A DNA stretch of 64,000 nt from an uncultured Gammaproteobacteria bacterium. Its GTDB lineage: Bacteria; Pseudomonadota; Gammaproteobacteria; UBA9214. Under the pieces are notes generated by a model that was not told the DNA's origin, did not search any database, and was given only the letters and a program-made list of their open reading frames with translations. Location of the stretch: the NCBI GenBank assembly GCA_963748215.1, contig CAVVHS010000007.1:384001-448000 (forward strand). Direction: 5' to 3'. Of this stretch, positions 18,171 to 31,870 are shown in pieces (position 1 is the first letter of the stretch; each line of letters begins with the position of its first letter). A program made the translations under genes and the position numbers.

Positions 18171-18213
18171 CAGAGGTGGACCTCGTTTGTTTTGTTAAGG
18201 GTATGGGTAGAGT

Positions 18214-18231
18214 GCATTGTGCCCACAATGC
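18214..18231. promoter_or_regulatory. Perfect palindrome, candidate operator
   Basis: GCATTGTG-CC-CACAATGC. A partial copy, ATTGTGCCCA, lies at 18291-18300. Confidence 0.4.
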
Positions 18232-18266
18232 CCCTGCGTAATTGCCACATCATTCGACCTGTCGTA

Positions 18267-18280
18267 TTGACGAATGTCAA
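18267..18280. promoter_or_regulatory. FNR/CRP-family box
   Basis: Perfect palindrome TTGAC-GAAT-GTCAA in the divergent ppsA/mbx intergenic region. Confidence 0.6.
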
Positions 18281-18366
18281 ATAAAGTGTGATTGTGCCCA
18301 GGCATGTTGACGAGCATGCCATGAAGCATATATCAGTCTTGCCCGGAACATCTGTCTGGGTGCAAA

Positions 18367-18408
18367 ATGATTTATGTCAAAACGCCAGTCACGGATTCGC
18401 GCTAGATT
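18367..18408 (+). promoter_or_regulatory. Second FNR-like box with class II -10 element
   Basis: ATGAT-TTAT-GTCAA at 18367-18380 and TAGATT at 18403-18408, the same spacing as the 8306 promoter. Oriented toward the Mrp-Mbx operon. Confidence 0.5.
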
Positions 18409-18577
18409 CCGCTGCTGTAAAACCAGCGTCTCAGAGACAGGCGTTGTCATATAAATGTAATAATTCGCGGGGGTTGCCAGTTTCGGTCAGTGACAGTGCA
18501 AGCGTCAGAATACCCTTGATCGACCCTGGTTTCACATATCATGCGCCTAGCAAGTTTTTACGTACTGATCTCCTGAT

Positions 18578-19105
18578 ATGAGCGGAAGCGGGACGTCGGT
18601 CATTAGCGGCACACGTGGACACATGGTGCTGGTCTTTCTGCTCGGCTGGCTGGCCTGGTTGCTGCTGGCCGGCACGCTGACTGTCGAGGAAGTCGTCGCC
18701 GGCGCGCTGGTGTCCCTGCTGGTCACGCTGCTGTCCGGCCGGCACCTGGCCGTCTATGCCGGGGTCCGCTTCACCCCCGATGCCATTCTCCACCTGTTTG
18801 CCTTTCTCGCCGTGTTCCTGCGTGCGCTGCTGCACGCGAACATCGACATGGCGCGCCGCGTGCTGTCGCCCGCGCTGCCGATCCGGCCAGCCGTGGTGGA
18901 AGTCGAAACGCAACTGCAGTCCGCGCTGGGCAAACTGTTGCTGACCAATGCCATAACGTTGACGCCCGGTACCCTCTCCATCGACGTCGAGGACAACCGT
19001 ATCAAGGTGCACTGGGTGGATTGCCCGCCAGGTCTGGACCTGCACGGCAAGACGGCCGCCATTGTCAGCGGTTTCGAACGCCACTTGCTCGGGTTCCTGG
19101 TATGA
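18578..19105 (+). CDS. Na+/H+ antiporter subunit E-like (MbxA/MrpE)
   Basis: ANIDMARRVLSP..PIRPAVVEV and LLTNAITLTPGTLSIDV...VHW. Confidence 0.9.
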   Translation: MSGSGTSVISGTRGHMVLVFLLGWLAWLLLAGTLTVEEVVAGALVSLLVTLLSGRHLAVYAGVRFTPDAILHLFAFLAVFLRALLHANIDMARRVLSPALPIRPAVVEVETQLQSALGKLLLTNAITLTPGTLSIDVEDNRIKVHWVDCPPGLDLHGKTAAIVSGFERHLLGFLV

Positions 19106-19368
19106 GCGTGTCCCTGTTACAGCTTGTCGCGCTGTGCCTGCTCGGTACCGGCCTGGTGCTGGGTACGATCCGCTTCGTGCTGGGACCGACCACGCCGGAC
19201 CGCATCGTCGCGGCAGACACCCTGTCGATCCTGATCACCGCGGGCCTGGTGTGGCTGGCGCACCTGCTCGACAGCGGCATCTATCTGTCCATCGCACTGG
19301 TGTTCGGGGCGCTGTCATTCGTCGGTACCGTGGCCCTGGCGCGTGCCATCGAGGGCAACCGCTCATGA
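19102..19368 (+). CDS. Antiporter subunit F-like (MbxB/MrpF)
   Basis: RFVLGPTTPDRIVAADTL and LSFVGTVALAR. ATGA overlap with the upstream gene. Confidence 0.88.
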   Translation: MSVSLLQLVALCLLGTGLVLGTIRFVLGPTTPDRIVAADTLSILITAGLVWLAHLLDSGIYLSIALVFGALSFVGTVALARAIEGNRS

Positions 19369-19697
19369 CGCTGGCCGGCGACCTGTTTCTGTTGCTGGGT
19401 TCCGCGTTCGCCTGTCTCGGTGCGCTGGGCCTGATTCGCATGCCGGATGTCTACAACCGCCTGCAGGCGGGTACCAAATCGGTCACGCTGGGGACCATGG
19501 CCATCCTCATCGGCATCGGCCTGCACCACCCGCAGTGGTGGTCCAATCTGCTGATGATCGGTGTGCTGGTGCTGTTCACCAATCCGGTCGGCTCTGCCTC
19601 CATCGCGCGCGCCGCACTGATTGCCGGTATTCGTCCCTGGCAGGTACCGGAGGCGGCGCCGCAACAGCTGCCGGCCGGCGAGGGGAAGGACGACTGA
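19365..19697 (+). CDS. Antiporter subunit G-like (MbxC/MrpG)
   Basis: GALGLIRMPDVYNRLQAGTKSVTLG and TNPVGSASIARAA. Confidence 0.9.
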   Translation: MTLAGDLFLLLGSAFACLGALGLIRMPDVYNRLQAGTKSVTLGTMAILIGIGLHHPQWWSNLLMIGVLVLFTNPVGSASIARAALIAGIRPWQVPEAAPQQLPAGEGKDD

Positions 19698-19990
19698 TGG
19701 CCGACTGGATCAACTGGGTGGCCCTGCTGGCGGTGCTGGTGATGCTGGCCGGCGCGGTAGCGGTGCTCCTGTTGAATAATTTCCTCGCGGCCGTGGCCGC
19801 GACCTCGGTGGTATCGCTGGGCGCTGCGGTGATTTTCGTGTTGCTGCGCGCGCCGGACGTGGCGCTGACCGAGGCCGCCGTGGGGGCCGGCCTGAGCAGC
19901 GTGATCATGGCGTTGTGCCTGCGACGGCTCGGCCTGTGGCACATCGCGCCGAATACGACCGGTGCGGATGACGCGGGAGGCAGCCGCTGA
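19697..19990 (+). CDS. MbhD/MbxD-like subunit (DUF4040)
   Basis: LLRAPDVALTEAAVGAGLS motif; translationally coupled. Confidence 0.85.
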   Translation: MADWINWVALLAVLVMLAGAVAVLLLNNFLAAVAATSVVSLGAAVIFVLLRAPDVALTEAAVGAGLSSVIMALCLRRLGLWHIAPNTTGADDAGGSR

Positions 19991-20679
19991 TGCGCAACTA
20001 CATCTCCCTGCTGTTCGTGGCCGGCCTGGCATTCCTGCTGTTCGTGATTACCGGTCAGCTCGAGTTCGGCGCGGCGCCGATGCTGATTGGACAGGCCATC
20101 AACCAGGCGGCGCCGGAGCAGGTCGGTGCCGCCAACATCGTCACCTCCGTGGTGCTGGGCTACCGTGCACTCGACACCCTGGGCGAGCTGGCGATCCTGT
20201 TCACTGCGGCCACCGCCGGCGGCCTGATGCTCGGGCGTCCGCGCCCCGGCGCGGCACATGATCCGGAGGCGGGTTTCATCCTGCGTACCGCCGCCGACCT
20301 GCTGTTTCCGTTGCTGCTGGTGGTGGGTCTGTTCATCATCGTGCACGGCCACCTGACGCCGGGTGGCGGCTTCCAGGGTGGCGTGATCCTGGCCGCGGCC
20401 TTTTTCGTGCCCTTGCTGGCGCGGCCCGGTACGCACTTCGACCACGCGTCCTTTGCCGTCGTCGAGGGCCTGGCCGGTGCCACCTTCATCGTGATCGGCC
20501 TGCTCGGCCTGGTGTATGGCGGCGAGTTTCTCGCGCCGCTGCTGGGACAGGGCGAGATGGGCAGCCTGCTGTCGGCCGGTACGCTGCCGTTGCTTTATAT
20601 CGCCGTTGGCCTGAAGGTCGGCACCGAGCTGGCCGGGCTGATGGCACACATTGCCGCCTACGAGGCGGTGGATTCATGA
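19990..20679 (+). CDS. Antiporter subunit B-like (MbhE/F fusion, MrpB)
   Basis: NIVTSVVLGYRALDTLGE and HGHLTPGGGFQGG. Confidence 0.9.
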   Translation: MRNYISLLFVAGLAFLLFVITGQLEFGAAPMLIGQAINQAAPEQVGAANIVTSVVLGYRALDTLGELAILFTAATAGGLMLGRPRPGAAHDPEAGFILRTAADLLFPLLLVVGLFIIVHGHLTPGGGFQGGVILAAAFFVPLLARPGTHFDHASFAVVEGLAGATFIVIGLLGLVYGGEFLAPLLGQGEMGSLLSAGTLPLLYIAVGLKVGTELAGLMAHIAAYEAVDS

Positions 20680-21134
20680 GCCCGCCGGACCTGGGGGCGA
20701 TCCTGTTCACCGGTGCCTTCGGCCTGGTGGTGATCGGCATCCTCGGCATTGTCACGTCCACGCACCTGGTGCGCATCGTACTGTCCATCGTGCTGCTGGA
20801 GACGGGCGCCAACCTGCTGCTGATGCTGTCGGGTTACCGGCCCGGCGCGGCGGCGCCGATCATTATCGACGGCGTGGTGCCGGCCGCCATGGTCGATCCG
20901 GTGCCGCAGGCCCTGGTGCTGACCGCGATCGTCATCGGTGTCGCGGTGCAGGCGTTCATGATGACGCTGGTACTGCGACTGCGCAGTGTTTACGGCACCC
21001 TGGATATTCGCGAGCTGCGTGGCCGCCTGGAGCGCGATCTCGCGCGGGAGGCCGGCATCGGTCTGCCGACCAGCGACGATGCCCCGGACGTGGCGGGTGT
21101 CGGTACGGCGCGTCCGCAGGGAGGTGACACCTGA
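20676..21134 (+). CDS. Antiporter subunit C-like (MbxG/MrpC)
   Basis: GANLLL...APII...MVDPVPQALVLTAIVIG and YGTLD. Confidence 0.9.
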   Translation: MSPPDLGAILFTGAFGLVVIGILGIVTSTHLVRIVLSIVLLETGANLLLMLSGYRPGAAAPIIIDGVVPAAMVDPVPQALVLTAIVIGVAVQAFMMTLVLRLRSVYGTLDIRELRGRLERDLAREAGIGLPTSDDAPDVAGVGTARPQGGDT

Positions 21135-22591
21135 TGTCGCCCGTGCTGATGTTCGTCCTGCCGTTGCTGGGTGCGTTCCTGTTGCCGATCGTGGCGCGTG
21201 CTTCGGCAATGGCTGGCCGCCTGTTCGGCCCGCTGGTGCTGGCGCTGAACTGTGTGATCGGCGTGCTGGCCTGGGGTACGGTGAGTGAACAGACCCAGGT
21301 CATTGCGCTGGGTGGCTTTCAGCCGCCGTTGGGTATCGCCTTCTATGTCGACCGGCTGGCGTTGCTGTTCGCCATCGCGGTCTCGCTCGGTGTGCTGCTG
21401 CTGTGGCCGGACGCCGGAGAGGATGAGGCCGCGCAGCGCGAGAACACGCTGACCCTGGTGCTGGCGGCAGCCGCGACCGGGCTGGCCTTGTCCGGCGACC
21501 TGTTCAATATCTACGTCTTTTACGAGCTCACGGCAGTGGCTTCCTACGGCCTGGCCGCGGCGCGCCGCAACGGCGCCGCCTATGCCGCCACGCTGCGCTA
21601 CGTGGTGATCAGCAGTTTCGGCGCGGCACTGATGCTGATGGGCATCGCGCTGGTGTACATGGCCACGGGCACGCTCAACCTCGCGCAGCTGGCGCAGCTT
21701 GCGCCCGGCGCGCTGGACGGTCCGCTCGGGCTGGCCGCGTTCGTGTTCATCCTGATCGGTGCCGGCGTCAAGGCCGAGCTGTTCCCGGTCAACACCTGGG
21801 TACCCGAGGTGTACGCGGCGGCCTCGAAGCGCGTCGCCGGCCTGCTGGCCGGTATCATTTCCAAGCTGGCATTGCTGATCATCGTGCGCCTGCTGGTGCT
21901 GGTTTTTCAGCAGCCCGAGGCGCTGCAGATCCTGTTGACGCTGGGCATCCTCGGCGTGATCACCGGCGAGCTGGCCGCCTGGTATGCGCGTGATCTGACA
22001 CGCATGCTGGCCTACTCGTCGATCGGCCAGCTTGGTGTGATGTTCATTGCCTTTTCCATTCCGGGTACGGCCGGCCTGTATGCCGGCCTGGCCGTGGCGC
22101 TGCATCATATGGTGGTCAAGCCGGCCCTGTTCCTGCTGGCGGAGCGCCAGGGCGGCGCGCTGGAACGCCTCGCCGGGTCGGCGCAGGCCTCGCCGGTGGC
22201 CGCCGGGCTGTTCATCCTGCTGGCGCTGTCACTGATCGGCATTCCGCCCTTGCCCGGTTTCTGGGCCAAATTCCTGGTGGTGACGGCGGCGCTGGCCCAG
22301 CCGGGCACGGCGTACCTGCTGAGCGTGGCGGTCATCCTGCTGGCCGTGGTGGTGGAGGCCAGCTACCTGTTCCGCGTGATCGTGCAGCTGTACCGGCGCG
22401 TGCCGCCGACCGAGGTCGGTGACGGGCACGATGGTGCGACGCTGACCGTCAGTGCAGCCCTGGGCCTGGCGCTGATCGCTGCCGTACTGTGGCTGGCACC
22501 ACTGGGCAACGGCCTGCAGGGCATCGCTGCGCAGGCCGCGGACCGGGCCGGCTACATCGAGGCGGTGCTGCCTGCCGGAGCCGGGTTATGA
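21134..22591 (+). CDS. Proton-translocating MrpD/NuoN-like subunit (MbxH)
   Basis: GDLFNIYVFYEL, GVKAELFPVNTWVPEVY, RMLAYSSIGQLG and GIPPLPGFWAKF. Confidence 0.9.
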   Translation: MSPVLMFVLPLLGAFLLPIVARASAMAGRLFGPLVLALNCVIGVLAWGTVSEQTQVIALGGFQPPLGIAFYVDRLALLFAIAVSLGVLLLWPDAGEDEAAQRENTLTLVLAAAATGLALSGDLFNIYVFYELTAVASYGLAAARRNGAAYAATLRYVVISSFGAALMLMGIALVYMATGTLNLAQLAQLAPGALDGPLGLAAFVFILIGAGVKAELFPVNTWVPEVYAAASKRVAGLLAGIISKLALLIIVRLLVLVFQQPEALQILLTLGILGVITGELAAWYARDLTRMLAYSSIGQLGVMFIAFSIPGTAGLYAGLAVALHHMVVKPALFLLAERQGGALERLAGSAQASPVAAGLFILLALSLIGIPPLPGFWAKFLVVTAALAQPGTAYLLSVAVILLAVVVEASYLFRVIVQLYRRVPPTEVGDGHDGATLTVSAALGLALIAAVLWLAPLGNGLQGIAAQAADRAGYIEAVLPAGAGL

Positions 22592-24450
22592 ACACGTTCG
22601 ACCAGTTGTTGCTGCTGGCTTTGGTCACCGTGCTGACGACGCTGCTCACCGGCGGCCTGCGCTGGGGTGGCTGGCTGGCAACACTGCTGTATGCGGGCCA
22701 GCTGGTATTGCTGTTCGGCATGGCGACGGTCGGCCAGGAAGGCGCATCGGTCAGTTCCGGACTGGCGATCGAGGTGCCGGGCTTTGTACTGCACTGGGAG
22801 ATGACGCCGCTGTCCTGGTTCTTCGCGCTGTTGACGGTGGGCGCCGGCCTGCTGTGCAGCGCCTATGCCGCGGGCGAGTGGGGGCAGGCTTACGGCGCGC
22901 AGCGCTCGTTGCGCCTGTTGAACGTGACGCTGGCGCTGAACGTCGCCAGCATGCTGTTGCTGGTCACCAGTGCCGACCTGTTGAGCCTGTTTATCGGCTG
23001 GGAGCTGATGAGCTGGGCCAGCCTGCTGATGATGATCCAGAACGGCCCCGCGTCGGTGCGCGCGGCGCTGCGTTACCTGCCGTATGCCATGGCCGGTGCG
23101 ATGGCGCTGCTCGGTGCCATCGCGCTGGTGTACGTGCAGGGCGGCACGCTTGAATTCGATGGCCTGCGCGCACTGCTGGCCGGCCTGGGCACGCTGCCGT
23201 TGTGGACGCTGCTGATGTTGCTGTTCGCCGGTTTCGCGGTGAAGATGGCCGCGGTGCCGTTCCACCTCTGGCAACCGCAGGCCTACAGCGAGGCACCCGG
23301 TGCGGGCGCGGCCTTCCTCGGCGCGATCTCATCGCGCATGGGCCTGTTCGCCATGGCGCTGGTGCTGGTCAAGCTGGTCGGTTTCGACTACCTGGCCGAT
23401 GCACAGGCCTGGGTCAGTCCGCAGGATGTCATGCTGCTGCTGTCTGCGGCCACCATCATCATCGGCGCCTACGTGGCGCTGCGCCAGGACGATGCGCGGC
23501 TGCTGCTGGCCTGGAGCGGTATCAGCCAGGGCGGCTACATGATGCTGGGGCTGTACAGCGGCGCACCGCTGGCGGTGGCCGGCGGCCTGAGTCATGTATT
23601 CAGCTATGCCACCTACGAGGCCGGCCTGTTCATGGTGGTGTTCGCCGTTGTCCACCGCACCGGCACCGCCGACATGAACCGGCTGGGCGGGCTGGTCACG
23701 CGCATGCCGCTGTCGTTCCTGGTGCTGCTGATGGGCATCATCGGGCTGGCCGGGCTGCCGCCGATCAACGGTTTCGTGTCGAAGTGGATGATCTACCGCG
23801 GCCTGCTCGACCAGGGCATGGTGCTCTATTTCCTGGTGTCGGTGATCGGCACCCTGGGCAGCGTGCTGTACTGCTACAAGCTGATCCACAATATCTTCCT
23901 CGGCCAGCTGCGGCTCGAGCACCACGCGGTGCGCGAGGCGCCGTGGAGCATGACCGTGCCCATGCTGGTGCTTGGCGCGCTGATGTTCGCCACCGGCTAC
24001 ATGCCGGGCCTCGTGCTCGACTGGGTAGCGCCGGCCATGGCCTACCTCGGCATTCAGCCGCCGGAATACACGCTCGGTGCCATCCTGACCGCGGGCGCCG
24101 ACCTCGACATGCTGTGGCTGGTGACCTTCATGCTGATTGGTTTCGGCATAGGCGCGGTGATTTTCTACTCGGCTGGCCGTGCCCAGCGCGTGCACCAGCT
24201 GAACAACTATGCCGGCGGCCATTTCCTGACGGCCGATACGCGTTACCAGTACAGCTACAATTTCTATCCGGCGCTTTACCGCCTGATCGGGCCGCTCTAT
24301 CGCAACAGCTTTCAGTGGCTGGAATCCGGCGTGCTGTCGCTGATGAATTTCGTGTCCGCCGGGGCGCAGGGCATTTACCGTTCGGTGCACCCGTCGCTGT
24401 ACCTGCTGGCCGTGGTGGTGCTGGTGAGCCTGTTCTGGGGGGCGACGTGA
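22588..24450 (+). CDS. Second, larger proton-translocating subunit (MbxH'-like)
   Basis: Starts MNTFDQ at 22588. DLLSLFIGWELMS, KMAAVPFHLWQP and GLPPINGFVSKWMIY. Confidence 0.9.
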   Translation: MNTFDQLLLLALVTVLTTLLTGGLRWGGWLATLLYAGQLVLLFGMATVGQEGASVSSGLAIEVPGFVLHWEMTPLSWFFALLTVGAGLLCSAYAAGEWGQAYGAQRSLRLLNVTLALNVASMLLLVTSADLLSLFIGWELMSWASLLMMIQNGPASVRAALRYLPYAMAGAMALLGAIALVYVQGGTLEFDGLRALLAGLGTLPLWTLLMLLFAGFAVKMAAVPFHLWQPQAYSEAPGAGAAFLGAISSRMGLFAMALVLVKLVGFDYLADAQAWVSPQDVMLLLSAATIIIGAYVALRQDDARLLLAWSGISQGGYMMLGLYSGAPLAVAGGLSHVFSYATYEAGLFMVVFAVVHRTGTADMNRLGGLVTRMPLSFLVLLMGIIGLAGLPPINGFVSKWMIYRGLLDQGMVLYFLVSVIGTLGSVLYCYKLIHNIFLGQLRLEHHAVREAPWSMTVPMLVLGALMFATGYMPGLVLDWVAPAMAYLGIQPPEYTLGAILTAGADLDMLWLVTFMLIGFGIGAVIFYSAGRAQRVHQLNNYAGGHFLTADTRYQYSYNFYPALYRLIGPLYRNSFQWLESGVLSLMNFVSAGAQGIYRSVHPSLYLLAVVVLVSLFWGAT

Positions 24451-25355
24451 TGGACTGGCAGACGGTGTTGTTCGATGTCGTGGTCATGCCGCTGGTGGCC
24501 TTTATCGTCGGGCTGCTGCTGGTGCTGATGATGCGCCGCACGCGCGCCCGGCTCGAGCGCCGCGTCGGGCCGCCGTTCTTCCAGCCGCTGTACGACATCC
24601 TCAAGCTGTATTCCAAGGATATCCAGGTCTCGCACGGTTTCATCCATGACCTGGGCATCATCATGGTGGTCGGTGGCTACATTACGGTGGAGATGTTCCT
24701 GCCGGTGCCGGGCATGGTCGGGCTGGCCGAGAAGGGCGACCTGATCGCGCTGGTGTACCTGATGATGGTGCCGTCGCTGGGCATGGCACTGGGCGTCGGC
24801 CAGTGCGCCAACCCGAACGGCTCGATCGGCATTTCGCGTGCGCTGACTTCCATGCTCGGCTACGACATTCCGTTCGTGCTGGTCGTGGTCGCGGCCGCGG
24901 CGATGTACGGCACCACCAGCCTGCCGGAGATCATCGCCATCCAGCAGCAGGGTGGAATCTCGACCTGGGGTATTGCGAGCATGCCGGTCATGGCGCTGGC
25001 CGGCTTAATCACCACTCACGTGATGCTGGCCAAGGAGCCGTTCGAGACCTACATCGCGCCGGCCGAGATCGCCACCGGGCCGATGGTCGAGATGGGCGGC
25101 AAGTTCATGGGCGGTTTGTTCGTCGTACAGACCTTTCAGGTCTATACTGCAGGTGTGCTGTTCACGACGCTGTTTCTGGGCGGCGGCGTCACCTGGTTCG
25201 ATTTTCTGCCAAAGGTGTTTGCCGTGCTGTTCCTGCCGTTCGCCATCACCATCCTGTATCCGCGTTACAAGGCCGGAGAAGGGTTACTCTGGGTGTGGAA
25301 ATGGCCGACCGGTATCGCGCTGCTGGGACTGGCGCTGATCTTTATGCAGAGGTGA
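24450..25355 (+). CDS. NuoH-like membrane subunit (MbxM)
   Basis: ARLERRVGPPFFQPLYDILKL and PFETYIAPAEIATGPMVEMGGK. Confidence 0.9.
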   Translation: MDWQTVLFDVVVMPLVAFIVGLLLVLMMRRTRARLERRVGPPFFQPLYDILKLYSKDIQVSHGFIHDLGIIMVVGGYITVEMFLPVPGMVGLAEKGDLIALVYLMMVPSLGMALGVGQCANPNGSIGISRALTSMLGYDIPFVLVVVAAAAMYGTTSLPEIIAIQQQGGISTWGIASMPVMALAGLITTHVMLAKEPFETYIAPAEIATGPMVEMGGKFMGGLFVVQTFQVYTAGVLFTTLFLGGGVTWFDFLPKVFAVLFLPFAITILYPRYKAGEGLLWVWKWPTGIALLGLALIFMQR

Positions 25356-25359
25356 GACC

Positions 25360-26091
25360 ATGAGCGACAAGCAACTCGAAATTCCGGTTACACAGGGCAG
25401 CCCTGCGCCCGGCGGCGGCAATCCCTATCGCGGCGTGTTTGACCGCCTGCAGGATTTCTGCCGCGCCCGCTCGCTGTTCATGCTGCATTACTGTACCGGC
25501 TGCGGGGCCATCGAGCTGCCACCGGCGATGACCTCGCGCTACGACATGGAGCGGCTCGGTATCCAGCCCATGGCCACGCCGCGCCAGGCGGACATCCTGC
25601 TGGTCACCGGCTATGTCGCCACCAAGACCCTGAAGCGCATCCTGCTGACCTACGAGCAGATGAGCGCGCCGCGCTATGTGATCGGCATCTGCTCCTGCAC
25701 CGTGAATGGCGGCATGTACTGGCAGAGCTACGCCACGGTGAAGAAACTTAACGACTACCTGCCGGTCGATATGTACATCGCCGGCTGCATGCCGCGCCCG
25801 GAGGCGGTCATCGTTGGCCTGCAGAAGCTGATGGAGAAGATCGATGCCGGCCGCGCGGAGTCCTGGAAGGACTACTACCGCAACTACGACTATTACCTGG
25901 GCAAGCAGCAGACGCTGTTCGGCGAACGCTGGCAGACGCCGACCGACATCATCGCCGAGGCGCGCCGCTACGACTTGTTCGGGCCGGACACGCTGGGATC
26001 ACACACCGCGCTGCTGGAGCAGTACCAGACGCCGCTGGAGATGCCGTCTACCCCGGTGTTCGGGCGCGAGCGCGAGAAAATCGAGCGGTAG
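25360..26091 (+). CDS. NuoB-like Fe-S subunit (MbxJ/MbsJ)
   Basis: YCTGCGAIELPPAMTSRYDMERLG, PRQADILLVTG, CSCTVNGG and AGCMPRPE. Confidence 0.9.
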   Translation: MSDKQLEIPVTQGSPAPGGGNPYRGVFDRLQDFCRARSLFMLHYCTGCGAIELPPAMTSRYDMERLGIQPMATPRQADILLVTGYVATKTLKRILLTYEQMSAPRYVIGICSCTVNGGMYWQSYATVKKLNDYLPVDMYIAGCMPRPEAVIVGLQKLMEKIDAGRAESWKDYYRNYDYYLGKQQTLFGERWQTPTDIIAEARRYDLFGPDTLGSHTALLEQYQTPLEMPSTPVFGREREKIER

Positions 26092-26118
26092 ATCGCGCCA
26101 TAAGCACCGCCCGGATCT

Positions 26119-26142
26119 ATGGTGCGCGTGGCGCACCCTACA
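26119..26142. repeat. Single GTAG-type REP palindrome inside the mbx operon
   Basis: GGTGCGCGTGGCGCACCCTAC, the same family as GGTGCGTAAAACGCACCCTAC elsewhere in the window. Confidence 0.55.
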
Positions 26143-26172
26143 AAAGGGAAATTAACCCCGCAGGCAAATTTC

Positions 26173-26712
26173 ATGGATAGCGGCAAGGAACTGGTCAACT
26201 GGCTGGACAAGGTGCTGGAGGAATTCCAGGGTGTGCAGGTGCGGCGCAAGAGCACCTCGCGCGTGCGCGTCGACGTGGATGCCGACGCGCTGCCGGCGCT
26301 GCTGGAGCTGCTGCAGGGGCGCGCCGGCTACGTGCACCTGTCCGCGCTGAGTTGCGTGGACTGGATCGACGACAACGAGTTCGAGCTGGTCTACCACGTG
26401 TGGTCCTACGAGACCCGCTCGCTGGTATCCGCGCACATCCGCATCCCGCGCGAGCCGGGGGCCTACCTCTCGGTCTACGACATCTACAAGCCGGCGGCCT
26501 TTTTCGAGCGCGACATCTTCGAAATGTTCGGCGTGTTCTTCGAGGGCAGTCCGCACATGGAGAAATTCATTCTCACCGAGTGGGACGGGCCGCCGCCGAT
26601 GCGCAAGGAATTCGATACCCGCCAGTACGTGCACGACACCTTCGACTGGCAGCAGTACAACCCGGAGTGGCTGCAGGAGATCCGCGCCAAGGGCGGGGGG
26701 ATCGTCGAATGA
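26173..26712 (+). CDS. NuoC-like subunit (MbxK)
   Basis: HLSALSCVDW...FELVYH, FERDIFEMFGVFFEG and PPMRKEF. Confidence 0.9.
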   Translation: MDSGKELVNWLDKVLEEFQGVQVRRKSTSRVRVDVDADALPALLELLQGRAGYVHLSALSCVDWIDDNEFELVYHVWSYETRSLVSAHIRIPREPGAYLSVYDIYKPAAFFERDIFEMFGVFFEGSPHMEKFILTEWDGPPPMRKEFDTRQYVHDTFDWQQYNPEWLQEIRAKGGGIVE

Positions 26713-27851
26713 GGCCCGAGAACTACCAGGCGGTCAGTCATCCGCCCAGCCACGAATTCGAGCTGAATATCGGCCCCAACCACCCCGGCATCGAGGGCAA
26801 CTACGCGCTCAAGCTGAAGCTGGAGGGCGACATCGTGGTGGCGGCAAAGGCCGACGCCGGCTACCTGCACCGCGGCTTCGAGAAGCTCATGGAAGGCCGG
26901 TTGTGGATGCAGAACATTGCGCTGGTGCCGCGCATCTGCGTGCCGGACCCGGCGCACATGGAGATCTGCTACGCGCTGGGCGTGGAAATGCTCGGCGGGC
27001 TGGAGGTGCCGGAGCGCGCGCAGTGGCTGCGTGTCATGCAGCTGGAGCTGTCGCGCCTCACCGCGCACCTGTTCTATTTCGGCGGCGCCGCCGCCACCAT
27101 GGGCATGTACAGCAACATGTTCTGGGGCGTGTCCGACCGCGACCTGATACTCGACCTGTTCGAGGAATTCACCGGCGGGCGCGTGTACAGCATGTACAAC
27201 GTGCCCGGCGGCGTGCGCCGCGACCTGCCCGAGGGCTTCATCGGTCGCCTGGTGTCGCTGCTGGATTACCTCGATTCGCGCCTGGACGACTACGACAACC
27301 TGTTCTTCACCAACTACGTGATGGTGCACCGCACGCGCGGCACCGGTGCCATGAACCAGCAGCAGGCGCTGGAATGGGGCGTGACCGGACCCAACCTGCG
27401 TTCCACCGGGCTGGCCTTCGACGTACGCCGTGACGATCCCTACCTGGTGTACGACCAGCTCGAGTTCGACATCCCGGTCGAGGAGGCCGGCGACGCGCTG
27501 TCGCGTATCCTGGTGCGGCGCAACGAGTTGATACAGAGCATCCGCATCCTGCGCCAGGTGGCCGAGCGCCTGCCGTCGATCGGCGGGCCGGTGCGCTGCC
27601 CGCTGCCCAATCCGCTGGCCTGGAACGTGCCGGCCGGCGAGAGCTACGCGCGCGTGGAATCCTCCAAGGGCGAGCTGGCCTACTACACCGTCTCCAATGG
27701 CAGCGACAAGCCGTGGCGCGTGCACATCCGCGGGCCGTCACAGATGCATGGCGTGCAGGTGCTGGAGAACCTCTGCATCGGCGCGCGCATCGAGGACGTC
27801 GCCCAGATCATTTTCACTCTCGACGCCTGTCCGCCGGAGGTCGACCGCTGA
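26709..27851 (+). CDS. NuoD-like catalytic subunit of MBS/MBX type (MbxL/MbsL)
   Basis: GPNHPG, GYLHRGFEKL, PRICVPD, VESSKGE, RGPS and C-terminal LDACPPEVDR. One Cys at each former NiFe site. Confidence 0.88.
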   Translation: MRPENYQAVSHPPSHEFELNIGPNHPGIEGNYALKLKLEGDIVVAAKADAGYLHRGFEKLMEGRLWMQNIALVPRICVPDPAHMEICYALGVEMLGGLEVPERAQWLRVMQLELSRLTAHLFYFGGAAATMGMYSNMFWGVSDRDLILDLFEEFTGGRVYSMYNVPGGVRRDLPEGFIGRLVSLLDYLDSRLDDYDNLFFTNYVMVHRTRGTGAMNQQQALEWGVTGPNLRSTGLAFDVRRDDPYLVYDQLEFDIPVEEAGDALSRILVRRNELIQSIRILRQVAERLPSIGGPVRCPLPNPLAWNVPAGESYARVESSKGELAYYTVSNGSDKPWRVHIRGPSQMHGVQVLENLCIGARIEDVAQIIFTLDACPPEVDR

Positions 27852-29686
27852 TGGCCGATATCGATTACAAGAGCCGCGGCAGCATCCTCAACCCGCTGCG
27901 CAACCTGTCGTTCCTGACGCGCAAGCCGGTCACGCTGCCGCTCGAACCGCGCGAGGCCTCGGCCAATTACCGCGGCTTTCACCTCAACGACTGGGAAAAG
28001 TGCATCGGCTGCAGCACCTGCCAGAAGATCTGCGACAACGAAGCGATTACCATGATCCACATCCCGGACCTGCCGGAGGACCCGATCAAGGGGGTGCGGG
28101 CGCAGCGACCGGCCATCGATTACGGCCGCTGCTGCTGGTGCGGCCTGTGTGTGGACATCTGTCCGACGGCGTCGCTGTCGCTGTCGCGCGAGTACGTGCA
28201 TACCTGCGAGGAACACGAGCTGGACAGCTATTTCATCCTGCCCGACCCGCAGGGCATGCACAAGAAGTTCTACGGCCACGGCTGGCGCAAGACCGCGGAC
28301 GAGGATCTAATTGACCTCGAGCGCCAGGCCATGCCCGAGCAGCCGGCGGAACAGCGCCTGCAGTCGTTCGGCGAATTCGTGCAGGGTTACGACATGCAGC
28401 AGGCCATCGTCGAGGCATCGCGATGCGTGCAGTGCGGCATGTGCCACGATTCCTGCCCGGCACACATGAACGCACCGGAATATATCCGCGCCATCTGGGA
28501 ACAGGACCTGGAGGAGGCGGTGCGCCAGATCTACCGCACCAACCCGTTCGCGCACGTGTGCGGGCGCGTTTGCACGCGGCGCTGCGAGGCGGCCTGTTCC
28601 ATCGGCGTACGGGGCGAGCCGGTGGCTATCCGCTGGCTGAAGCGATATGCCATGGACAGCGTCGGCCATGAACGCATACGCGAGATTGCAGGCGAGGGGC
28701 GTGGCGACTATCTCAGCGGTGGCAAGGTTGCGGTGATCGGTGCCGGACCCGCCGGCCTGACCGCGGCCTTCGACCTGGCACGGCACGGCCACAGCGTCAC
28801 GGTGTACGAGGCGCAGCCGGCGGCGGGCGGCATGATGCGCTACGGCATCCCGGCCTACCGGTTGCCGTACGCGCGCATCGACGACGACGTCGACGTGATT
28901 CGCGCCATGGGCGTCGACATCCAGTACAATACGCGCATTGGCCGCGATATTTCCATGTCGCAGCTGCAGGCGGACTACGATGGCGTACTGCTGGCCATCG
29001 GCCTGTGGAACGGTCGCTCCACGCGCGTGCCCGGTTCGGACCACGCACAGGTGCGCAGTGCGGTCGAGCTGCTGCGCGAGATCACGCTCAACGAGTCCTT
29101 GACGGTGCCGCAGTCGGCTGTGGTCATCGGCGGTGGCAATACCGCCATGGATATCGCGCGCAGCATGGCACGCCTGCAGCTCGTGCAATACGGACAGGCC
29201 AATATCACGCTTACCGCACTGGAAGACGCCGATCACTTGCTGGCCGACCCGGTGGAGATCCGCGAGACCGACGAGGAAGGCATTACCATCCTGCCGGGGC
29301 GCGGTCCGCGCCGCTGCATGATGGACGAGCAGGGCCGGCTGGTCGGGCTGGAGACCGTGCGCGTGGTGTCGCTGCATGACGAACAGGGCCGCTTCGCGCC
29401 GCAATACGACGACGGCGATGTGCAGATGCACGTCGCGGATATGGTGATCGAGGCCATCGGCCAGCAGGCGGACACCTCGCTGCTGAGCGTGGAACTTACC
29501 GAGGCGCTGGAATGGGAGCGCGGCCGGATCAAGACCGATGCCGGCGGTCGCAGCTCGGTCGGCTGGCTGTGGGCGGCCGGCGACGTGGTTACGGGGCCGG
29601 ATGTTATCCACGCCGTGGCCGACGGGCACCGCGTCGCAGCCAGCATCGAGGCCTGCCTGGGACAGGAGAGATATGCCAATGGGTAG
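27851..29686 (+). CDS. NuoI/MbxN-like 2x[4Fe-4S] domain fused to a GltD-like FAD/NAD(P)H oxidoreductase
   Basis: YRGFH..CIGCSTCQKIC and CCWCGLCVDICP, then RCVQCGMCHDSCP, GRVCTRRCEAAC, GAGPAG, GGGNTAMD and AGDVVTGP. Confidence 0.88.
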   Translation: MADIDYKSRGSILNPLRNLSFLTRKPVTLPLEPREASANYRGFHLNDWEKCIGCSTCQKICDNEAITMIHIPDLPEDPIKGVRAQRPAIDYGRCCWCGLCVDICPTASLSLSREYVHTCEEHELDSYFILPDPQGMHKKFYGHGWRKTADEDLIDLERQAMPEQPAEQRLQSFGEFVQGYDMQQAIVEASRCVQCGMCHDSCPAHMNAPEYIRAIWEQDLEEAVRQIYRTNPFAHVCGRVCTRRCEAACSIGVRGEPVAIRWLKRYAMDSVGHERIREIAGEGRGDYLSGGKVAVIGAGPAGLTAAFDLARHGHSVTVYEAQPAAGGMMRYGIPAYRLPYARIDDDVDVIRAMGVDIQYNTRIGRDISMSQLQADYDGVLLAIGLWNGRSTRVPGSDHAQVRSAVELLREITLNESLTVPQSAVVIGGGNTAMDIARSMARLQLVQYGQANITLTALEDADHLLADPVEIRETDEEGITILPGRGPRRCMMDEQGRLVGLETVRVVSLHDEQGRFAPQYDDGDVQMHVADMVIEAIGQQADTSLLSVELTEALEWERGRIKTDAGGRSSVGWLWAAGDVVTGPDVIHAVADGHRVAASIEACLGQERYANG

Positions 29687-30206
29687 TGATACAGATACAC
29701 GCAGCCGGGAGGGCGCCTTGCATGGCAAGGACCTGCTGGCGTCGAAAAAGTCGCTGCAGGACATCCTGCTCGTGGCAACGGCCTTCGAGAAGACGGCGCG
29801 CGATTTCTACACGGCGTTGATTCCGCGCGTCAGCAAGCAGATCCGCTACCTGGTGGAGGAGCTGGCGGAAGAGGAGCAGCGTCACTACGACCTGTTCACT
29901 GAGCTGGCGAAATCACCGGACATCAACGAGCTTGTCCACGCGCAGGTTACTGTGCCCGTCAACGACCACCATTTTTCCGACTACGTGCACATGCCGGAAA
30001 TCGATGATGCGCCGGATGACCAGGCAATCCTGCAATATGCGCTCGCACGCGAGCATGCTGCGATGGAGCAGTATCGCGACCTCGCCAATAACACCGAATC
30101 AGGCCCGATCCACGACCTGTTCGAGTTCCTGGCCATCGAGGAGACCAAGCACAAGCGCGAACTGGAGAAGATCTACTACGAGACGGTGCACAGCGGGGGC
30201 GTCTGA
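29673..30206 (+). CDS. Ferritin-like / rubrerythrin-family diiron protein
   Basis: FEKTARDFY..LAEEEQRH and REHAAMEQY..LAIEETKH, i.e. duplicated E...ExxH motifs. Overlaps the upstream stop codon. Confidence 0.82.
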   Translation: MPMGSDTDTRSREGALHGKDLLASKKSLQDILLVATAFEKTARDFYTALIPRVSKQIRYLVEELAEEEQRHYDLFTELAKSPDINELVHAQVTVPVNDHHFSDYVHMPEIDDAPDDQAILQYALAREHAAMEQYRDLANNTESGPIHDLFEFLAIEETKHKRELEKIYYETVHSGGV

Positions 30207-30255
30207 GCCGGACCTGCAAACGCCATCCAGCGGGTTATCCGTTTTAAGCGGTTTA

Positions 30256-30464
30256 AATGGCCACGGAATCCACGGCAGAACACGGAAAACACGTAGGATG
30301 CACTCCGTGCACCATTGGGTGAGACGTGAGACGTGAACAGCAGAATGGCCACGGAATCAACGGCAGAACACGGAAAACACGTAGGATGCACTCCGTGCAC
30401 CATTGGGTGAGACGTGAGACGTGAACAGCAGAATGGCCACGGAATCAACGGCAGAACACGGAAT
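30256..30464. repeat. 88-bp tandem repeat (2 full units plus a partial) built from REP-like parts
   Basis: Units start at 30256, 30344 and 30432: AATGGCCACGGAATC(C/A)ACGGCAGAACACGGAA + GTAGGATGCACTCCGTGCACC + GTGAGACGTGAGACGTGA. Confidence 0.85.
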
Positions 30465-30495
30465 GACGTCAAGAACCTCTACGAGTCTATACCTC

Positions 30496-30581
30496 GCCAT
30501 TGCGAGCGGAGCGAAGCAATCTTTCGATTTCATGATCAGTCGGCTGGAGATCGCTTCGTCACTGCATTCCTCGCAATGACG
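30496..30581. repeat. Palindromic element of the CATTGCGAG...GCAATC / CTCGCAATGAC type
   Basis: CATTGCGAGCGGAGCGAAGCAATCT ... AGATCGCTTCGTCACTGCATTCCTCGCAATGAC. Confidence 0.6.
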
Positions 30582-30609
30582 GGATGATCAGGGTTACCTT
30601 GAATAAATA

Positions 30610-31860: not shown

Positions 31861-31870
31861 GAGGTGATTT

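What the first reader, a model, noticed from the sequence alone, without database searches (positions are those of the whole stretch)
18578..29686. 13-gene complex matches MBS/MBX rather than complex I or a hydrogenase
Seen: gene order MrpE,F,G,MbhD,MrpB,C,H,H',M(NuoH),J,K,L,N. The L subunit has RICVPD and LDACPPEVDR (one Cys at each end, no CxxC pairs), and J has CTGCGAIELPP. Known: Pyrococcus furiosus MBS has this architecture with two antiporter-like H subunits, and MbsL retains two Cys but no NiFe site. Inference: an MBS-type sulfane reductase in an apparently mesophilic gammaproteobacterium; a different substrate is possible.
Basis: partly seen in the sequence, partly recalled or inferred. 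Interest (0 to 1): 0.8.

Follow-up and report, generated by a model that had tools for sequence, protein, structure and literature searches.

The report
NADH-linked MBS-type sulfur respiratory complex
A sulfur-oxidising sediment bacterium carries the bacterial version of an archaeal sulfur-reducing, ion-pumping membrane complex, apparently wired to NADH instead of ferredoxin; the gene set is real and conserved, but genome studies have already noted this kind and its actual job is untested.

Summary
Window 18578-29686 (+) encodes 13 tightly packed genes in the stated order, and the quoted motifs are present. The NuoD-like L subunit belongs with Pyrococcus/Thermococcaceae MbsL. It does not group with NuoD, FpoD or [NiFe] hydrogenases. 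The evidence is PDB scores, a careful tree (clade support 100/99) and an AU test that rejects a NuoD/FpoD placement.

Subunit N (611 aa) is a NuoI-like domain fused to an NfnB/GltD-type FAD and Fe-S NAD(P)H module. A conserved rubrerythrin-like 14th gene follows it. The fused N lacks the YRR motif that marks NADP(H) use in NfnB and DsrL, so I predict NAD(H) as the partner rather than ferredoxin.

The same operon is conserved in about 66 gammaproteobacterial loci, including tubeworm symbionts, Sedimenticola, Thiogranum and Thiohalobacter. Fused-N forms dominate bacterial relatives across many phyla.

The literature already describes "mbx-like" operons with a gltD-type N and rubrerythrin (2015) and a "putative Mrp-Mbx" in Endoriftia (2024). 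This is therefore a new member of a known kind.

Substrate and direction are not established. My best guess is an ion-translocating NADH:sulfane-sulfur oxidoreductase.

The parts
18578..19105 (+). MrpE-like membrane subunit. By gene order it corresponds to MbsA (inferred). The start could also be the ATG at 18623.
   Evidence: Pfam MNHE 2.2e-32; coordinates.
19102..19368 (+). MrpF-like subunit (MbsB position).
   Evidence: Pfam MrpF_PhaF 7.8e-16.
19365..19697 (+). MrpG-like subunit (MbsC position).
   Evidence: Pfam PhaG_MnhG_YufB 2.5e-24; TIGR01300 87.2 bits, above its cut-off of 63.1.
19697..19990 (+). MbhD-like subunit (MrpA C-terminal-like; MbsD position).
   Evidence: Pfam MbhD 5.6e-19.
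19990..20679 (+). MrpB/MbhE-like subunit (MbsE position).
   Evidence: Pfam MnhB 2.2e-22 and MbhE 7.9e-06.
20676..21134 (+). MrpC/NuoK-like subunit (MbsG position).
   Evidence: Pfam Oxidored_q2 1.1e-21.
21134..22591 (+). Antiporter-like subunit H (MrpD/NuoN-like).
   Evidence: Best PDB match is 6u8y_H (MbsH), 199.4 bits over residues 4-480. The TM5 Glu and TM7 Lys align with MbsH E138 and K250 (read from the alignment).
22588..24450 (+). Antiporter-like subunit H' (MrpA N-terminal/NuoL-like) with a C-terminal extension.
   Evidence: Best PDB match is 6u8y_X (MbsH'), 173.9 bits, residues 59-615 against 56-614. E139 and H336 are conserved. The TM7 Lys (MbsH' K248) is Arg250 here.
24450..25355 (+). 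NuoH-like membrane anchor M.
   Evidence: Pfam NADHdh 5.6e-42.
25360..26091 (+). NuoB-like subunit J, carrier of the proximal [4Fe-4S] cluster.
   Evidence: Best PDB match is 6u8y_J, 219.9 bits; the next is NdhK at 117.3. Cys45/48/113/143 align with MbsJ C25/C28/C93/C123.
26119..26712 (+). NuoC-like subunit K. An alternative start lies at 26173.
   Evidence: Pfam Complex1_30kDa 2.4e-26.
26709..27851 (+). NuoD-like subunit L of MbsL type. It has no NiFe site and no quinone-ligand residues.
   Evidence: Scores, tree and structure. E29 and V78 stand at the Nqo4 H38 and Y87 positions; C77 and C374 are the vestigial Cys.
27851..29686 (+). Fused subunit N. Residues 7-131 are NuoI/MbsN-like with two CxxCxxCxxxC motifs. 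Residues ~157-606 are an NfnB/GltD-type module: Fe-S motifs, FAD site GAGPAG at 297-302, and NAD(P)H site GGGNTAMD at 427-434 followed by TALED at 455-459 in place of YRR.
   Evidence: (NF010590, 803.8 bits over residues 11-606).
29673..30206 (+). Rubrerythrin-like diiron four-helix protein, a conserved 14th gene. Its start is uncertain; as called it overlaps the N stop by 14 nt.
   Evidence: Pfam Rubrerythrin 2e-13; ExxH motifs. It was found in 65 of the 72 loci whose N lacks YRR and in 0 of the 34 with YRR.

Best explanation
The 14 genes encode a bacterial Mrp-Mbx/MBS-type ion-translocating oxidoreductase. The membrane arm is a complete Mrp antiporter set (E, F, G, MbhD, B, C and the two antiporter-like subunits H and H') joined through a NuoH-like anchor (M). 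The peripheral arm consists of J, K, L and N.

Electrons would enter or leave through an NfnB/GltD-type flavoprotein module fused to N. The path would be nicotinamide cofactor, FAD, two [4Fe-4S] clusters, the two NuoI-type [4Fe-4S] clusters, then the proximal [4Fe-4S] of J. That last cluster sits at the J/L/M pocket, which in P. furiosus MBS reduces S-S bonds of polysulfide.

The module lacks the YRR NADP motif, so the cofactor is predicted to be NAD(H).

My committed reading is that this is an NADH:sulfane-sulfur (polysulfide / stored S0) oxidoreductase coupled to Na+/H+ translocation. A sulfur-storing chemolithoautotroph would use it under anoxia to respire stored sulfur with reducing power from stored carbon.

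Shown: the gene set, its family placement, the domain fusion, motif states, and conservation. Inferred: the cofactor (from a motif rule), the substrate (by homology), and the direction (from gene context and physiology of other sulfur bacteria).

Membership of the MBS/Mbx family: about 0.95. NAD(H) linkage: about 0.7. The full statement, including forward direction: about 0.4.
For: Family placement:
- Every peripheral and antiporter subunit tested has its best solved-structure match in 6u8y (MBS). L scores 388.3 bits, J 219.9, the N N-terminal domain 88.8, H' 173.9 and H 199.4.
- L is 49% identical to a Thermococcaceae MbsL. That protein itself scores 808.9 bits to 6u8y_L.
- The careful IQ-TREE of 66 rows puts window L in a clade with MbsL at 100/99. 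The AU test rejects holding it with NuoD/FpoD, p 7.4e-5.
- The quinone ligands Nqo4 H38 and Y87 are E29 and V78 here, as reported for MBS.

NAD(H) linkage:
- N residues 157-606 score 235.8 bits to NfnI-L (5jca_L) and 230.7 to T. maritima NfnB (4ylf_B).
- TALED stands where 34 of 106 fused relatives have YRR.
- YRR binds the NADP phosphate in NfnB, and it separates NADP(H)-specific DsrL-2 from NAD(H)-preferring DsrL-1 (PMC7596348, passages).

Sulfur link:
- T. maritima mbxA, from a 13-subunit homologue, rises 4.36-fold with S0 (PMC9431562, passages).
- The host genome has SoxB, dsrA and RuBisCO.
- In Endoriftia a 'putative Mrp-Mbx' shares co-expression neighbours with the rTCA cycle; sulfur globule protein genes are also rTCA neighbours (PMC11636981).

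Forward direction:
- The neighbours are alpha-glucan phosphorylase, zwf, pgl, an NAD+-type gnd (TIGR00872, 421 bits) and a POR operon with its own NfnB/DsrL-like flavoprotein.
- gnd lies directly downstream in 7 of 44 gamma-clade loci.
- Beggiatoa respires stored sulfur with stored PHA under anoxia (PMC3253548, abstract).
Against: - No activity has been measured for any bacterial MBX.
- Recalled standard potentials are NAD+/NADH about -320 mV and S0 or polysulfide/HS- about -260 to -270 mV. That leaves only about 10 kJ per 2 e-, barely enough to move one ion. The reaction is therefore near equilibrium and could as well run backwards.
- The gnd/zwf adjacency is a minority pattern (7 of 44 loci), and three of the seven are near-identical genomes.
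- PEP synthase next door is normally gluconeogenic.
- The YRR rule comes from NfnB/DsrL and has not been tested on this module.
- Three Bacillota and two Cloacimonadota loci also lack YRR, so the motif does not track sulfur oxidisers alone.
- H' carries Arg instead of the TM7 Lys in 47 of 47 gamma-clade sequences. The effect on pumping is unknown.
- The non-cysteinyl iron that is catalytic in MBS cannot be read from sequence, and J keeps all four Cys.
Confidence: 0.4

Rival explanations
1. Same complex, opposite direction. The ion-motive force drives electrons from sulfide or short polysulfides (forming S-S bonds) onto NAD+. This would give the autotroph NADH far more cheaply than reverse electron flow from quinol through complex I.
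For: The redox span is small (recalled potentials), so direction is set by the ion gradient and the substrate ratios. The hosts are sulfur-oxidising autotrophs that need NADH for CO2 fixation. In the related DsrL family the YRR-less, NAD(H)-preferring form is the one found in sulfur oxidisers and is biased toward NAD+ reduction, while the YRR form serves reduction (PMC7596348). Here, 67 of the 72 YRR-less N sequences are from Pseudomonadota, and 33 of the 34 YRR forms are from other or unlabelled phyla.
Against: No MBS-type enzyme has been shown to run backwards. YRR-less forms also occur in Bacillota and Cloacimonadota. In Endoriftia the cluster is co-expressed with modules that rise when sulfide is limiting, which fits sulfide oxidation poorly. 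The neighbouring genes are catabolic and NAD(P)H-producing.
Confidence: 0.2
2. A ferredoxin:NAD(P)+ oxidoreductase, as in the older Mbx model. Run in reverse, it would be an ion-gradient-driven NADH:ferredoxin reductase that supplies reduced ferredoxin, as Rnf does. The L/J pocket would have no substrate.
For: This is how mbx and mbx-like operons were read in PMC4758237 and in the Mesotoga preprint. Co-expression with the ferredoxin-dependent rTCA cycle in Endoriftia fits it.
Against: P. furiosus MBS was later shown to reduce sulfane sulfur at the proximal cluster. In complex I-type machines coupling arises from chemistry in the pocket (established knowledge). No ferredoxin gene lies in the operon, and N's surface carries a fused domain where ferredoxin would dock (inference).
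Confidence: 0.12
3. The pocket reduces or oxidises another substrate: organic persulfides or trisulfides, thiosulfate or tetrathionate, or another hydrophobic acceptor. Rubrerythrin might take part in peroxide removal.
For: The gamma clade has its own residues near the active site. These are extra Cys34 and Cys111 in J (55 and 57 of 60, against Gly at position 111 in 76 of 81 others) and Glu29 in L (61 of 61). Rubrerythrin co-occurs strictly with the YRR-less N.
Against: Glu29 and the four J cysteines are shared with Thermococcaceae MBS. No sulfur-transferase or other substrate-specific gene sits in the operon.
Confidence: 0.15
4. An alternative NADH:quinone oxidoreductase, that is, a compact complex I.
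For: It has an NADH-type input module and a complex I-like architecture. According to the MBS paper the pocket opening is as wide as in complex I.
Against: L lacks the H38 and Y87 equivalents in 61 of 61 gamma-clade sequences. L is separated from NuoD/FpoD in the tree and by the AU test. The genome has a separate nuoD.
Confidence: 0.08

Closest known systems
Pyrococcus furiosus MBS (membrane-bound sulfane sulfur reductase, PDB 6U8Y; formerly MBX)
   Same: Every subunit tested has its best PDB match there. L is about 48-49% identical and keeps both vestigial Cys and Glu at the H38 position. J has the same four Cys positions. H' has the long C-terminal extension.
   Different: In MBS, N is a short ferredoxin-accepting subunit (208 aa chain). 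Here N is 611 aa with a fused NfnB/GltD-type FAD and Fe-S NAD(P)H module, giving five predicted [4Fe-4S] clusters instead of three. There is an added rubrerythrin-like gene. H' has Arg for the TM7 Lys, and J has extra Cys34 and Cys111. The host is a sulfur-oxidising bacterium, presumed mesophilic.
Bacterial 'mbx-like' operon with gltD-type N, often ending in rubrerythrin (Thermotoga, proteobacteria; Degli Esposti 2015, PMC4758237); T. maritima MBX
   Same: The architecture matches exactly: an Mrp set, the Nuo-like H, B, C, D subunits, N replaced or extended by a gltD-like flavoprotein, and a terminal rubrerythrin. T. maritima mbxA is induced by S0.
   Different: In the loci examined here, the 2 Thermotogota and the other non-proteobacterial forms mostly keep YRR (NADPH type), and none has a rubrerythrin gene nearby (0 of 34). 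The window's clade lacks YRR and has rubrerythrin. None has been purified.
'Putative Mrp-Mbx complex' of Ca. Endoriftia persephone (Mitchell et al. 2024, PMC11636981)
   Same: It belongs to the same gamma clade. An Endoriftia contig fragment (L071) and tubeworm-symbiont loci are 76-79% identical in L and carry the same 14 genes.
   Different: The paper only names the complex and reports co-expression with the rTCA cycle. In the passages I read, the N fusion and the cofactor are not discussed.
Respiratory complex I (Nuo) and F420H2 dehydrogenase (Fpo)
   Same: The fold and modular plan are shared. The L model superposes on NuoD at TM about 0.90.
   Different: There is no H38/Y87 and no NuoE/F/G module. 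The membrane arm is Mrp-type. L lies outside the NuoD and FpoD clades.
NfnB / GltD / DsrL iron-sulfur flavoproteins
   Same: The C-terminal 450 residues of N have the same domain order and cofactor motifs. The YRR rule for NADP(H) comes from this family.
   Different: Here the module is covalently fused to a NuoI-like subunit of a membrane complex. It has no NfnA partner and no C-terminal ferredoxin domain.

Membership tests
MBS/MBX-type membrane-bound oxidoreductase (P. furiosus MBS, 6U8Y) | 13 subunit types: a full Mrp set with two antiporter-like subunits (H, H') plus NuoH/B/C/D/I-like subunits | tested here: met
   All 13 were identified by Pfam/NCBIfam. The subunit list of MBS is taken from PMC7684303.
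MBS/MBX-type membrane-bound oxidoreductase (P. furiosus MBS, 6U8Y) | L subunit without the four NiFe cysteines (two vestigial Cys kept) and without the quinone ligands H38/Y87 | tested here: met
   Only C77 and C374 remain. E29 and V78 stand at the H38 and Y87 positions.
MBS/MBX-type membrane-bound oxidoreductase (P. furiosus MBS, 6U8Y) | L groups phylogenetically with MbsL rather than NuoD, FpoD or group 4 hydrogenase large subunits | tested here: met
   Clade support is 100/99, 99 in the quick tree and 96 in FastTree with 128 rows. AU p is 7.4e-5 against NuoD/FpoD. No labelled 'Ehr' reference was available.
MBS/MBX-type membrane-bound oxidoreductase (P. furiosus MBS, 6U8Y) | Proximal [4Fe-4S] in J held by three Cys, with one free catalytic Fe | not testable with these tools
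   All four Cys positions of MbsJ are present. Whether Cys45 ligates the cluster cannot be read from sequence.
MBS/MBX-type membrane-bound oxidoreductase (P. furiosus MBS, 6U8Y) | Ferredoxin as electron donor through a short N subunit (three clusters in all) | tested here: not met
   N is 611 aa with a fused NfnB/GltD-type module. The window complex is therefore a relative of P. furiosus MBS, not the same enzyme.
MBS/MBX-type membrane-bound oxidoreductase (P. furiosus MBS, 6U8Y) | Sulfane sulfur (polysulfide/DMTS) reductase activity coupled to ion pumping | not testable with these tools
   This needs biochemistry.
Bacterial mbx-like operon with gltD-type N (Degli Esposti 2015) | NuoI position occupied by a gltD-related NAD(P)H flavoprotein | tested here: met
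   The same fusion is seen in 53 of 63 judgeable loci of the RICVPEPD scan.
Bacterial mbx-like operon with gltD-type N (Degli Esposti 2015) | Operon ends with rubrerythrin | tested here: met
   29673-30206 matches Pfam Rubrerythrin at 2e-13. It is conserved in the gamma clade.
Respiratory complex I (NuoD equivalog) | NuoD with the H38/Y87 quinone site, and clustering with NuoD | tested here: not met
   TIGR01962 scores 348.4, below its cut-off of 459.35. The residues are absent, and the tree and AU test separate L from NuoD. The looser NF004739 model is passed (433 against 360), which is why automated annotation would call it NuoD.
Group 4 [NiFe] hydrogenase (MBH/Ech) | RxCxxC and DPCxxC nickel-iron ligands in the large subunit | tested here: not met
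   The sequence reads RICVPD and DACPPE. It scores 123 bits to MbhL against 388 to MbsL.
F420H2 dehydrogenase FpoD | NF040602 above cut-off | tested here: not met
   The score is 316.1, below the cut-off of 600. True FpoD representatives (P0011, P0032) fall outside the clade.

The most novel reading that the evidence does not exclude
In sulfur-oxidising autotrophs this MBS-type machine runs in reverse. It would spend a small amount of Na+/H+ gradient to lift electrons from sulfide or polysulfide directly onto NAD+, bypassing the costly reverse electron flow from quinol through complex I. The loss of the YRR motif (NADH type), the rubrerythrin partner and the clade-specific H' Lys-to-Arg change would be adaptations to that mode.
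Probability: 0.18. Interest if true: 0.85.

Novelty: new member of a known kind. Interest (0 to 1): 0.45.

Why it matters
How sulfur-storing chemolithoautotrophs, including the symbionts that feed tubeworms, survive anoxia is poorly understood at the enzyme level. The same is true of how they balance NADH. Physiology shows that stored sulfur can be respired, for example in Beggiatoa, but I know of no assigned enzyme (recalled).

This conserved 14-gene complex is a concrete candidate. The prediction that it uses NADH, while relatives in anaerobes use NADPH and archaea use ferredoxin, can be tested directly in cultured carriers.

If the complex runs in reverse, it would change the energy budget assumed for sulfur-based CO2 fixation. 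On present evidence, however, it is a well-conserved member of an operon type already described from genomes.

Tried and rejected
- The promoter/terminator scan of 17900-31000 found 1 promoter-like site (2.7 expected) and 9 terminator-like sites (6.4 expected). This is uninformative.
- The search of earlier findings returned nothing for this place.
The AlphaFold2 model of L (pLDDT 89.6) hits 6u8y_L first (TM 0.92/0.94), but NuoD chains follow at TM about 0.90.
- The single-protein locus search reached only the gamma clade plus four NuoD-like loci (L066, L067, L069, L070). These proved to be H38/Y87 or other NuoD types, and I used them as outgroup material.
- I found no labelled 'Ehr' large subunit, so that comparison was not made. 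Unnamed NuoD-like representatives (P0004, P0015, P0017, P0007, P0016, P0020, P0022, P0028, P0070) sit just outside the MbsL clade and may include such proteins.
- RNA evidence: four sediment metatranscriptome runs hold short contigs 95-99% alike over 15-23 of 30 bins. These are contigs from relatives in RNA libraries that may contain DNA, so they are only a weak hint of transcription. Uncovered parts mean nothing.
- I did not use complex prediction, the protein-atlas search or the search for homologous proteins, because the family assignment was already clear.
- I considered reading the upstream 759-aa ORF as a POR-GltD fusion and rejected it. Its first ~230 residues look like out-of-frame translation, and porB occupies another frame there.

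Full report
**1. Observation**

The + strand of window 18578-29686 holds 13 ORFs packed with 1-4 nt overlaps or gaps of 4-27 nt. Pfam and NCBIfam assign them, in order, as follows:
- MrpE
- MrpF
- MrpG
- MbhD
- MrpB/MbhE
- MrpC/NuoK-like
- two Proton_antipo_M subunits (H, 485 aa; H', 620 aa)
- NuoH-like (M)
- NuoB-like (J)
- NuoC-like (K)
- NuoD-like (L)
- a 4Fe-4S dicluster subunit (N)

E-values run from 7.8e-16 to 1.3e-76. L has RICVPD at residues 75-80 and LDACPPEVDR at 371-380. J has CTGCGAIELPP from residue 45.

**2. Family of the complex**

Against all PDB chains, each subunit I tested has its best match in 6u8y, the P. furiosus MBS complex.

| Subunit | Score to 6u8y chain | Next best matches |
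|---|---|---|
| L | 388.3 bits | Nqo4 269.2; MbhL 123; HycE 119.1 |
| J | 219.9 bits | NdhK 117.3 |
| N, residues 7-131 | 88.8 bits | next NuoI-like 52.4 |
| H' | 173.9 bits over its whole length, including the C-terminal extension | - |
| H | 199.4 bits | - |

To build a labelled tree I fetched loci in three ways:
- Gamma-clade loci with the L protein.
- Eighty loci with a degenerate pattern for the motif RICVPEPD.
- L paralogues from two Thermococci genomes, a Thiocapsa genome and a Thermotogae genome.

L203 is a Thermococcaceae MbsL, scoring 808.9 bits to 6u8y_L over residues 1-391. L207 is MbhL-type, scoring 391 bits to 6cfw_L. L208 is a Thiocapsa NuoD. Representatives P0011 and P0032 pass the FpoD cut-off.

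Three trees were built:
- FastTree. I dropped 6 rows (two duplicates of L208, one frameshifted and three truncated). I kept representatives P0001-P0070 of at least 350 aa plus three NiFe rows. I then thinned 209 rows to 128 at 82% identity. This tree puts window L in a 13-row gamma clade (support 100) inside a 56-row clade (support 96) that holds every RICVP-type L, including MbsL.
- Quick IQ-TREE on a hand-picked 66-row set (LG+C20 PMSF). This gives 99 for that clade.
- Careful IQ-TREE on the same 66 rows. This gives 100/99 for the clade and 100/100 for the gamma clade.

NuoD, FpoD and NiFe large subunits lie outside the clade in all three. Holding the gamma clade together with NuoD/FpoD costs 113.7 log-likelihood units, with p-AU 7.4e-5. 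I named that group after seeing the tree, which weakens the formal meaning of the p-value.

The AlphaFold2 model of L (pLDDT 89.6) hits 6u8y_L first (TM 0.92/0.94, rmsd 2.2). NuoD chains follow at TM about 0.90, so fold alone does not decide the question.

'Ehr' is an umbrella term in which Mbx itself is counted (PMC6349859, passages). I had no labelled Ehr reference.

**3.

N is 611 aa.
- Residues 7-131 are MbsN/NuoI-like, with two CxxCxxCxxxC motifs.
- Residues ~157-606 are an NfnB/GltD-type iron-sulfur flavoprotein. The evidence is Fer4_20 at 1.9e-29, Pyr_redox_2 at 2.6e-30, 235.8 bits to NfnI-L (5jca_L) and 230.7 bits to T. maritima NfnB (4ylf_B).
- The whole fusion matches NCBIfam NF010590 over residues 11-606. 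The score is 803.8 bits, below its cut-off of 946.

A rubrerythrin-like gene (29673-30206; Pfam 2e-13; ExxH motifs) follows.

The peripheral arm is therefore predicted to carry FAD and five [4Fe-4S] clusters, and to talk to a nicotinamide cofactor. P. furiosus MBS has three clusters and uses ferredoxin (PMC7684303, passages).

**4. Residue-level anatomy**

L subunit:
- E29 stands at the Nqo4 H38 position and V78 at the Y87 position. C77 and C374 are the two vestigial NiFe cysteines.
- These states hold in 60-61 of the 61 gamma-clade sequences.
- The MBS paper reports that the equivalent C85A/C385A mutant, and MbsJ C25A, keep activity. It assigns catalysis to the proximal cluster's non-cysteinyl Fe. 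The cysteines are therefore a family mark, not the mechanism.

J subunit:
- Cys45/48/113/143 align with MbsJ C25/C28/C93/C123.
- Position 45 is Cys in 59 of 60 gamma-clade sequences. It is Gly in 59 of 81 other relatives, which fits a three-Cys cluster in the family.
- Cys34 (55 of 60) and Cys111 (57 of 60; Gly in 76 of 81 others) are specific to the gamma clade.

H' and H subunits:
- H' keeps the TM5 Glu and TM8 His. It has Arg250 where MbsH' has K248. This is so in 47 of 47 gamma-clade sequences, against Lys in 22 of 22 others.
- H keeps the Glu and the Lys.

N subunit:
- After the NAD(P)H-site motif GGGNTAMD there is a 6-residue insertion and then TALED, where NfnB-like sequences have YRR.
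- Over 106 fused N ORFs, 34 have YRR. One of these is from Pseudomonadota; the rest come from Cloacimonadota, Bacteroidota, Thermotogota, Spirochaetota, Acidobacteriota and others.
- The other 72 have the insertion plus an acidic motif. They comprise 53 gamma clade, 14 other Pseudomonadota, 3 Bacillota and 2 Cloacimonadota.
- A rubrerythrin-like gene is found in the locus of 65 of the 72 and of 0 of the 34. Related genomes are not independent observations.
- In NfnB, Y310/R311/R312 hold the NADP phosphate. In DsrL, YRR marks the NADP(H)-only enzymes, while YRR-less DsrL-1 prefers NAD(H) (PMC7596348, passages).
- I therefore predict NAD(H) for the window's complex.

**5. Distribution and setting**

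Gamma clade:
- Of the 70 loci, 66 are gamma-clade relatives, with L 70-99% identical. They include MAGs labelled Sedimenticola, Thiogranum, Thiohalobacter and Ectothiorhodospiraceae, endosymbionts of Escarpia and Lamellibrachia, and an Endoriftia fragment.
- Thirty-seven loci return all 14 proteins. The rest are short contigs. In L050, the 10 kb upstream shows no membrane-subunit genes.

Class survey:
- In an even sample of 300 genomes of the class, 16 have an Mbx-type L at E <= 1e-90.
- Fourteen of these, including the window's own genome, are of the gamma-clade type. Two have only a ~49% type. One of the fourteen (G219) has both types.

The RICVPEPD scan:
Seventy-eight have an Mbx-type L.
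- N is fused in 53 and short in 10. The short ones are Thermococcaceae, DHVE2, Thermoplasmata, Synergistota, three Campylobacterota, two Chromatiaceae, and one Rhodospirillales locus with the flavoprotein gene elsewhere.
- N cannot be judged in 15.
- The NAD(P)H-linked form is thus the common bacterial one.

Host genome:
- It has SoxB (697 bits), RuBisCO large subunit (462 bits) and dsrA (two frames, 276 + 217 bits).

Neighbouring genes:
- On the minus strand upstream lie PEP synthase, a porG-porA-porB operon with its own NfnB/DsrL-like flavoprotein, alpha-glucan phosphorylase, a PfkB kinase and iPGM.
- Downstream lie an NAD+-type gnd (TIGR00872, 421 bits), zwf and pgl.
- gnd is the first downstream gene in 7 of 44 gamma-clade loci and zwf the second in 6. 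The POR/flavoprotein pair recurs in L010 and L011.

RNA:
- Short contigs 95-99% alike occur in four sediment metatranscriptome runs. This is a weak hint only.

**6. How it most likely works**

Shown: the parts list, the fusion and the motif states.

Inferred: NADH reduces FAD in N. Electrons pass five [4Fe-4S] clusters to the J/L/M pocket. There, as in MBS, an S-S bond of polysulfide or stored sulfur is reduced. The conformational coupling shared with complex I drives H+ through H and H', and Na+/H+ exchange through the Mrp module.

With NADH, the span to S0 or polysulfide is only about 50-60 mV (recalled standard potentials). That compares with the 42 kJ per 2 e- quoted for ferredoxin-driven MBS (PMC8165549). 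The reaction is therefore close to equilibrium, and its direction in vivo is open.

I lean toward sulfur respiration during anoxia (0.4). The reasons are the catabolic, NAD(P)H-producing neighbours, the S0 induction of T. maritima mbxA, and the known respiration of stored sulfur by Beggiatoa.

The reverse mode is gradient-driven sulfide/polysulfide:NAD+ reduction. It is the most interesting alternative (about 0.2) and has a parallel in the DsrL family.

**7. Novelty**

[quoted passage not shown] The paper adds that the operon often ends with rubrerythrin and that NuoD keeps vestigial Cys (PMC4758237, passages).
- Mitchell et al. (2024) name a putative Mrp-Mbx in Endoriftia.
- My searches found no paper assigning a cofactor, a direction or an activity to the proteobacterial form. 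The searches were 'Mrp-Mbx' (1 paper); Mbx + NuoI + glutamate synthase + Gammaproteobacteria (4 papers); and 'sulfane reductase' + sulfur-oxidizing + Gammaproteobacteria (none of the 12 listed hold the first term). The library does not include most subscription journals.
- New here, as far as these searches go: the split between YRR and no-YRR forms, its link with rubrerythrin, the clade-specific H' Lys-to-Arg and J Cys changes, and the count showing that fused N is the bacterial norm.

**8. Limits**

- No activity data exist.
- Motif rules are borrowed from relatives.
- Loci were gathered by motif and are not a random sample.
- The assembly shows frame breaks in other genes (nuoD, dsrA, PEP synthase), although the 14 genes here are intact.

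Noticed in passing
window 11255-15744 (-): This is a porG (15103-15744), porA (13947-15251), porB (12940-13989) operon. It is followed by an NfnB/DsrL-like Fe-S flavoprotein (~12900-11255) with a C-terminal 2x[4Fe-4S] domain and no separate delta-ferredoxin gene. It looks like a 2-oxoacid:NAD(P)+ oxidoreductase. The pair also lies next to the Mbx-like cluster in L010 and L011.
   Followed up: partly
window 15745-18139 (-): PEP synthase is split over two overlapping frames (15745-17208 and 16835-18139). One metatranscriptome contig from a relative lacks one base at 17304. This may be an assembly indel or a real frameshift.
   Followed up: partly
G000:C6:1020290-1021542 and G000:C6:353160-354375: The genome's canonical nuoD matches in three frames, and dsrA in two, one with 4 in-frame TGA. 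This suggests frequent indel errors in this assembly, or decaying genes. The 14 genes of the finding are intact.
   Followed up: no
window 22588-24450 (H'), residue 250: The TM7 lysine of antiporter-like subunits (MbsH' K248) is arginine in 47 of 47 gamma-clade H' sequences and lysine in 22 of 22 others. The consequence for ion transfer is unknown.
   Followed up: partly
window 25360-26091 (J), residues 34 and 111: There are two extra cysteines specific to the gamma clade. Cys111 lies two residues before cluster ligand Cys113 (ICSC). In most other bacterial relatives the first ligand-position Cys (45) is Gly.
   Followed up: partly
loci L083, L088, L094-L096, L125, L153, L155 and others: This is a second L subtype, RICVPEPD ... 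HTYPPEIER, in which the C-terminal vestigial Cys is Tyr. It occurs in Cloacimonadota, Spirochaetota and a second proteobacterial clade (Thiosymbion, Sedimenticola, Thiobacillaceae, Gallionellaceae). Its N and rubrerythrin are 57-66% identical to the window's although L is only ~45% identical, which hints at module exchange.
   Followed up: partly
loci: A rubrerythrin-like gene accompanies the YRR-less N in 65 of 72 loci and the YRR form in 0 of 34.
   Followed up: partly
L050:1-10000: In this Chromatiaceae MAG the J-K-L-N-rubrerythrin genes are present, but the 10 kb upstream shows no hits to the nine membrane-subunit genes. The operon may be split, or the contig misjoined.
   Followed up: no
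window 30844-34098 (+): gnd (short, NAD+-type equivalog TIGR00872), zwf and pgl lie directly downstream of the cluster. The same adjacency is seen in L005, L006, L015, L018, L029 and L043.
   Followed up: partly
window 48680-63544: There are two sets of circularly permuted ATP-grasp, alpha-E, transglutaminase-like and DUF2126 genes, plus a zinc metallopeptidase. This conserved gene group of unknown role is unrelated to the finding.
   Followed up: no
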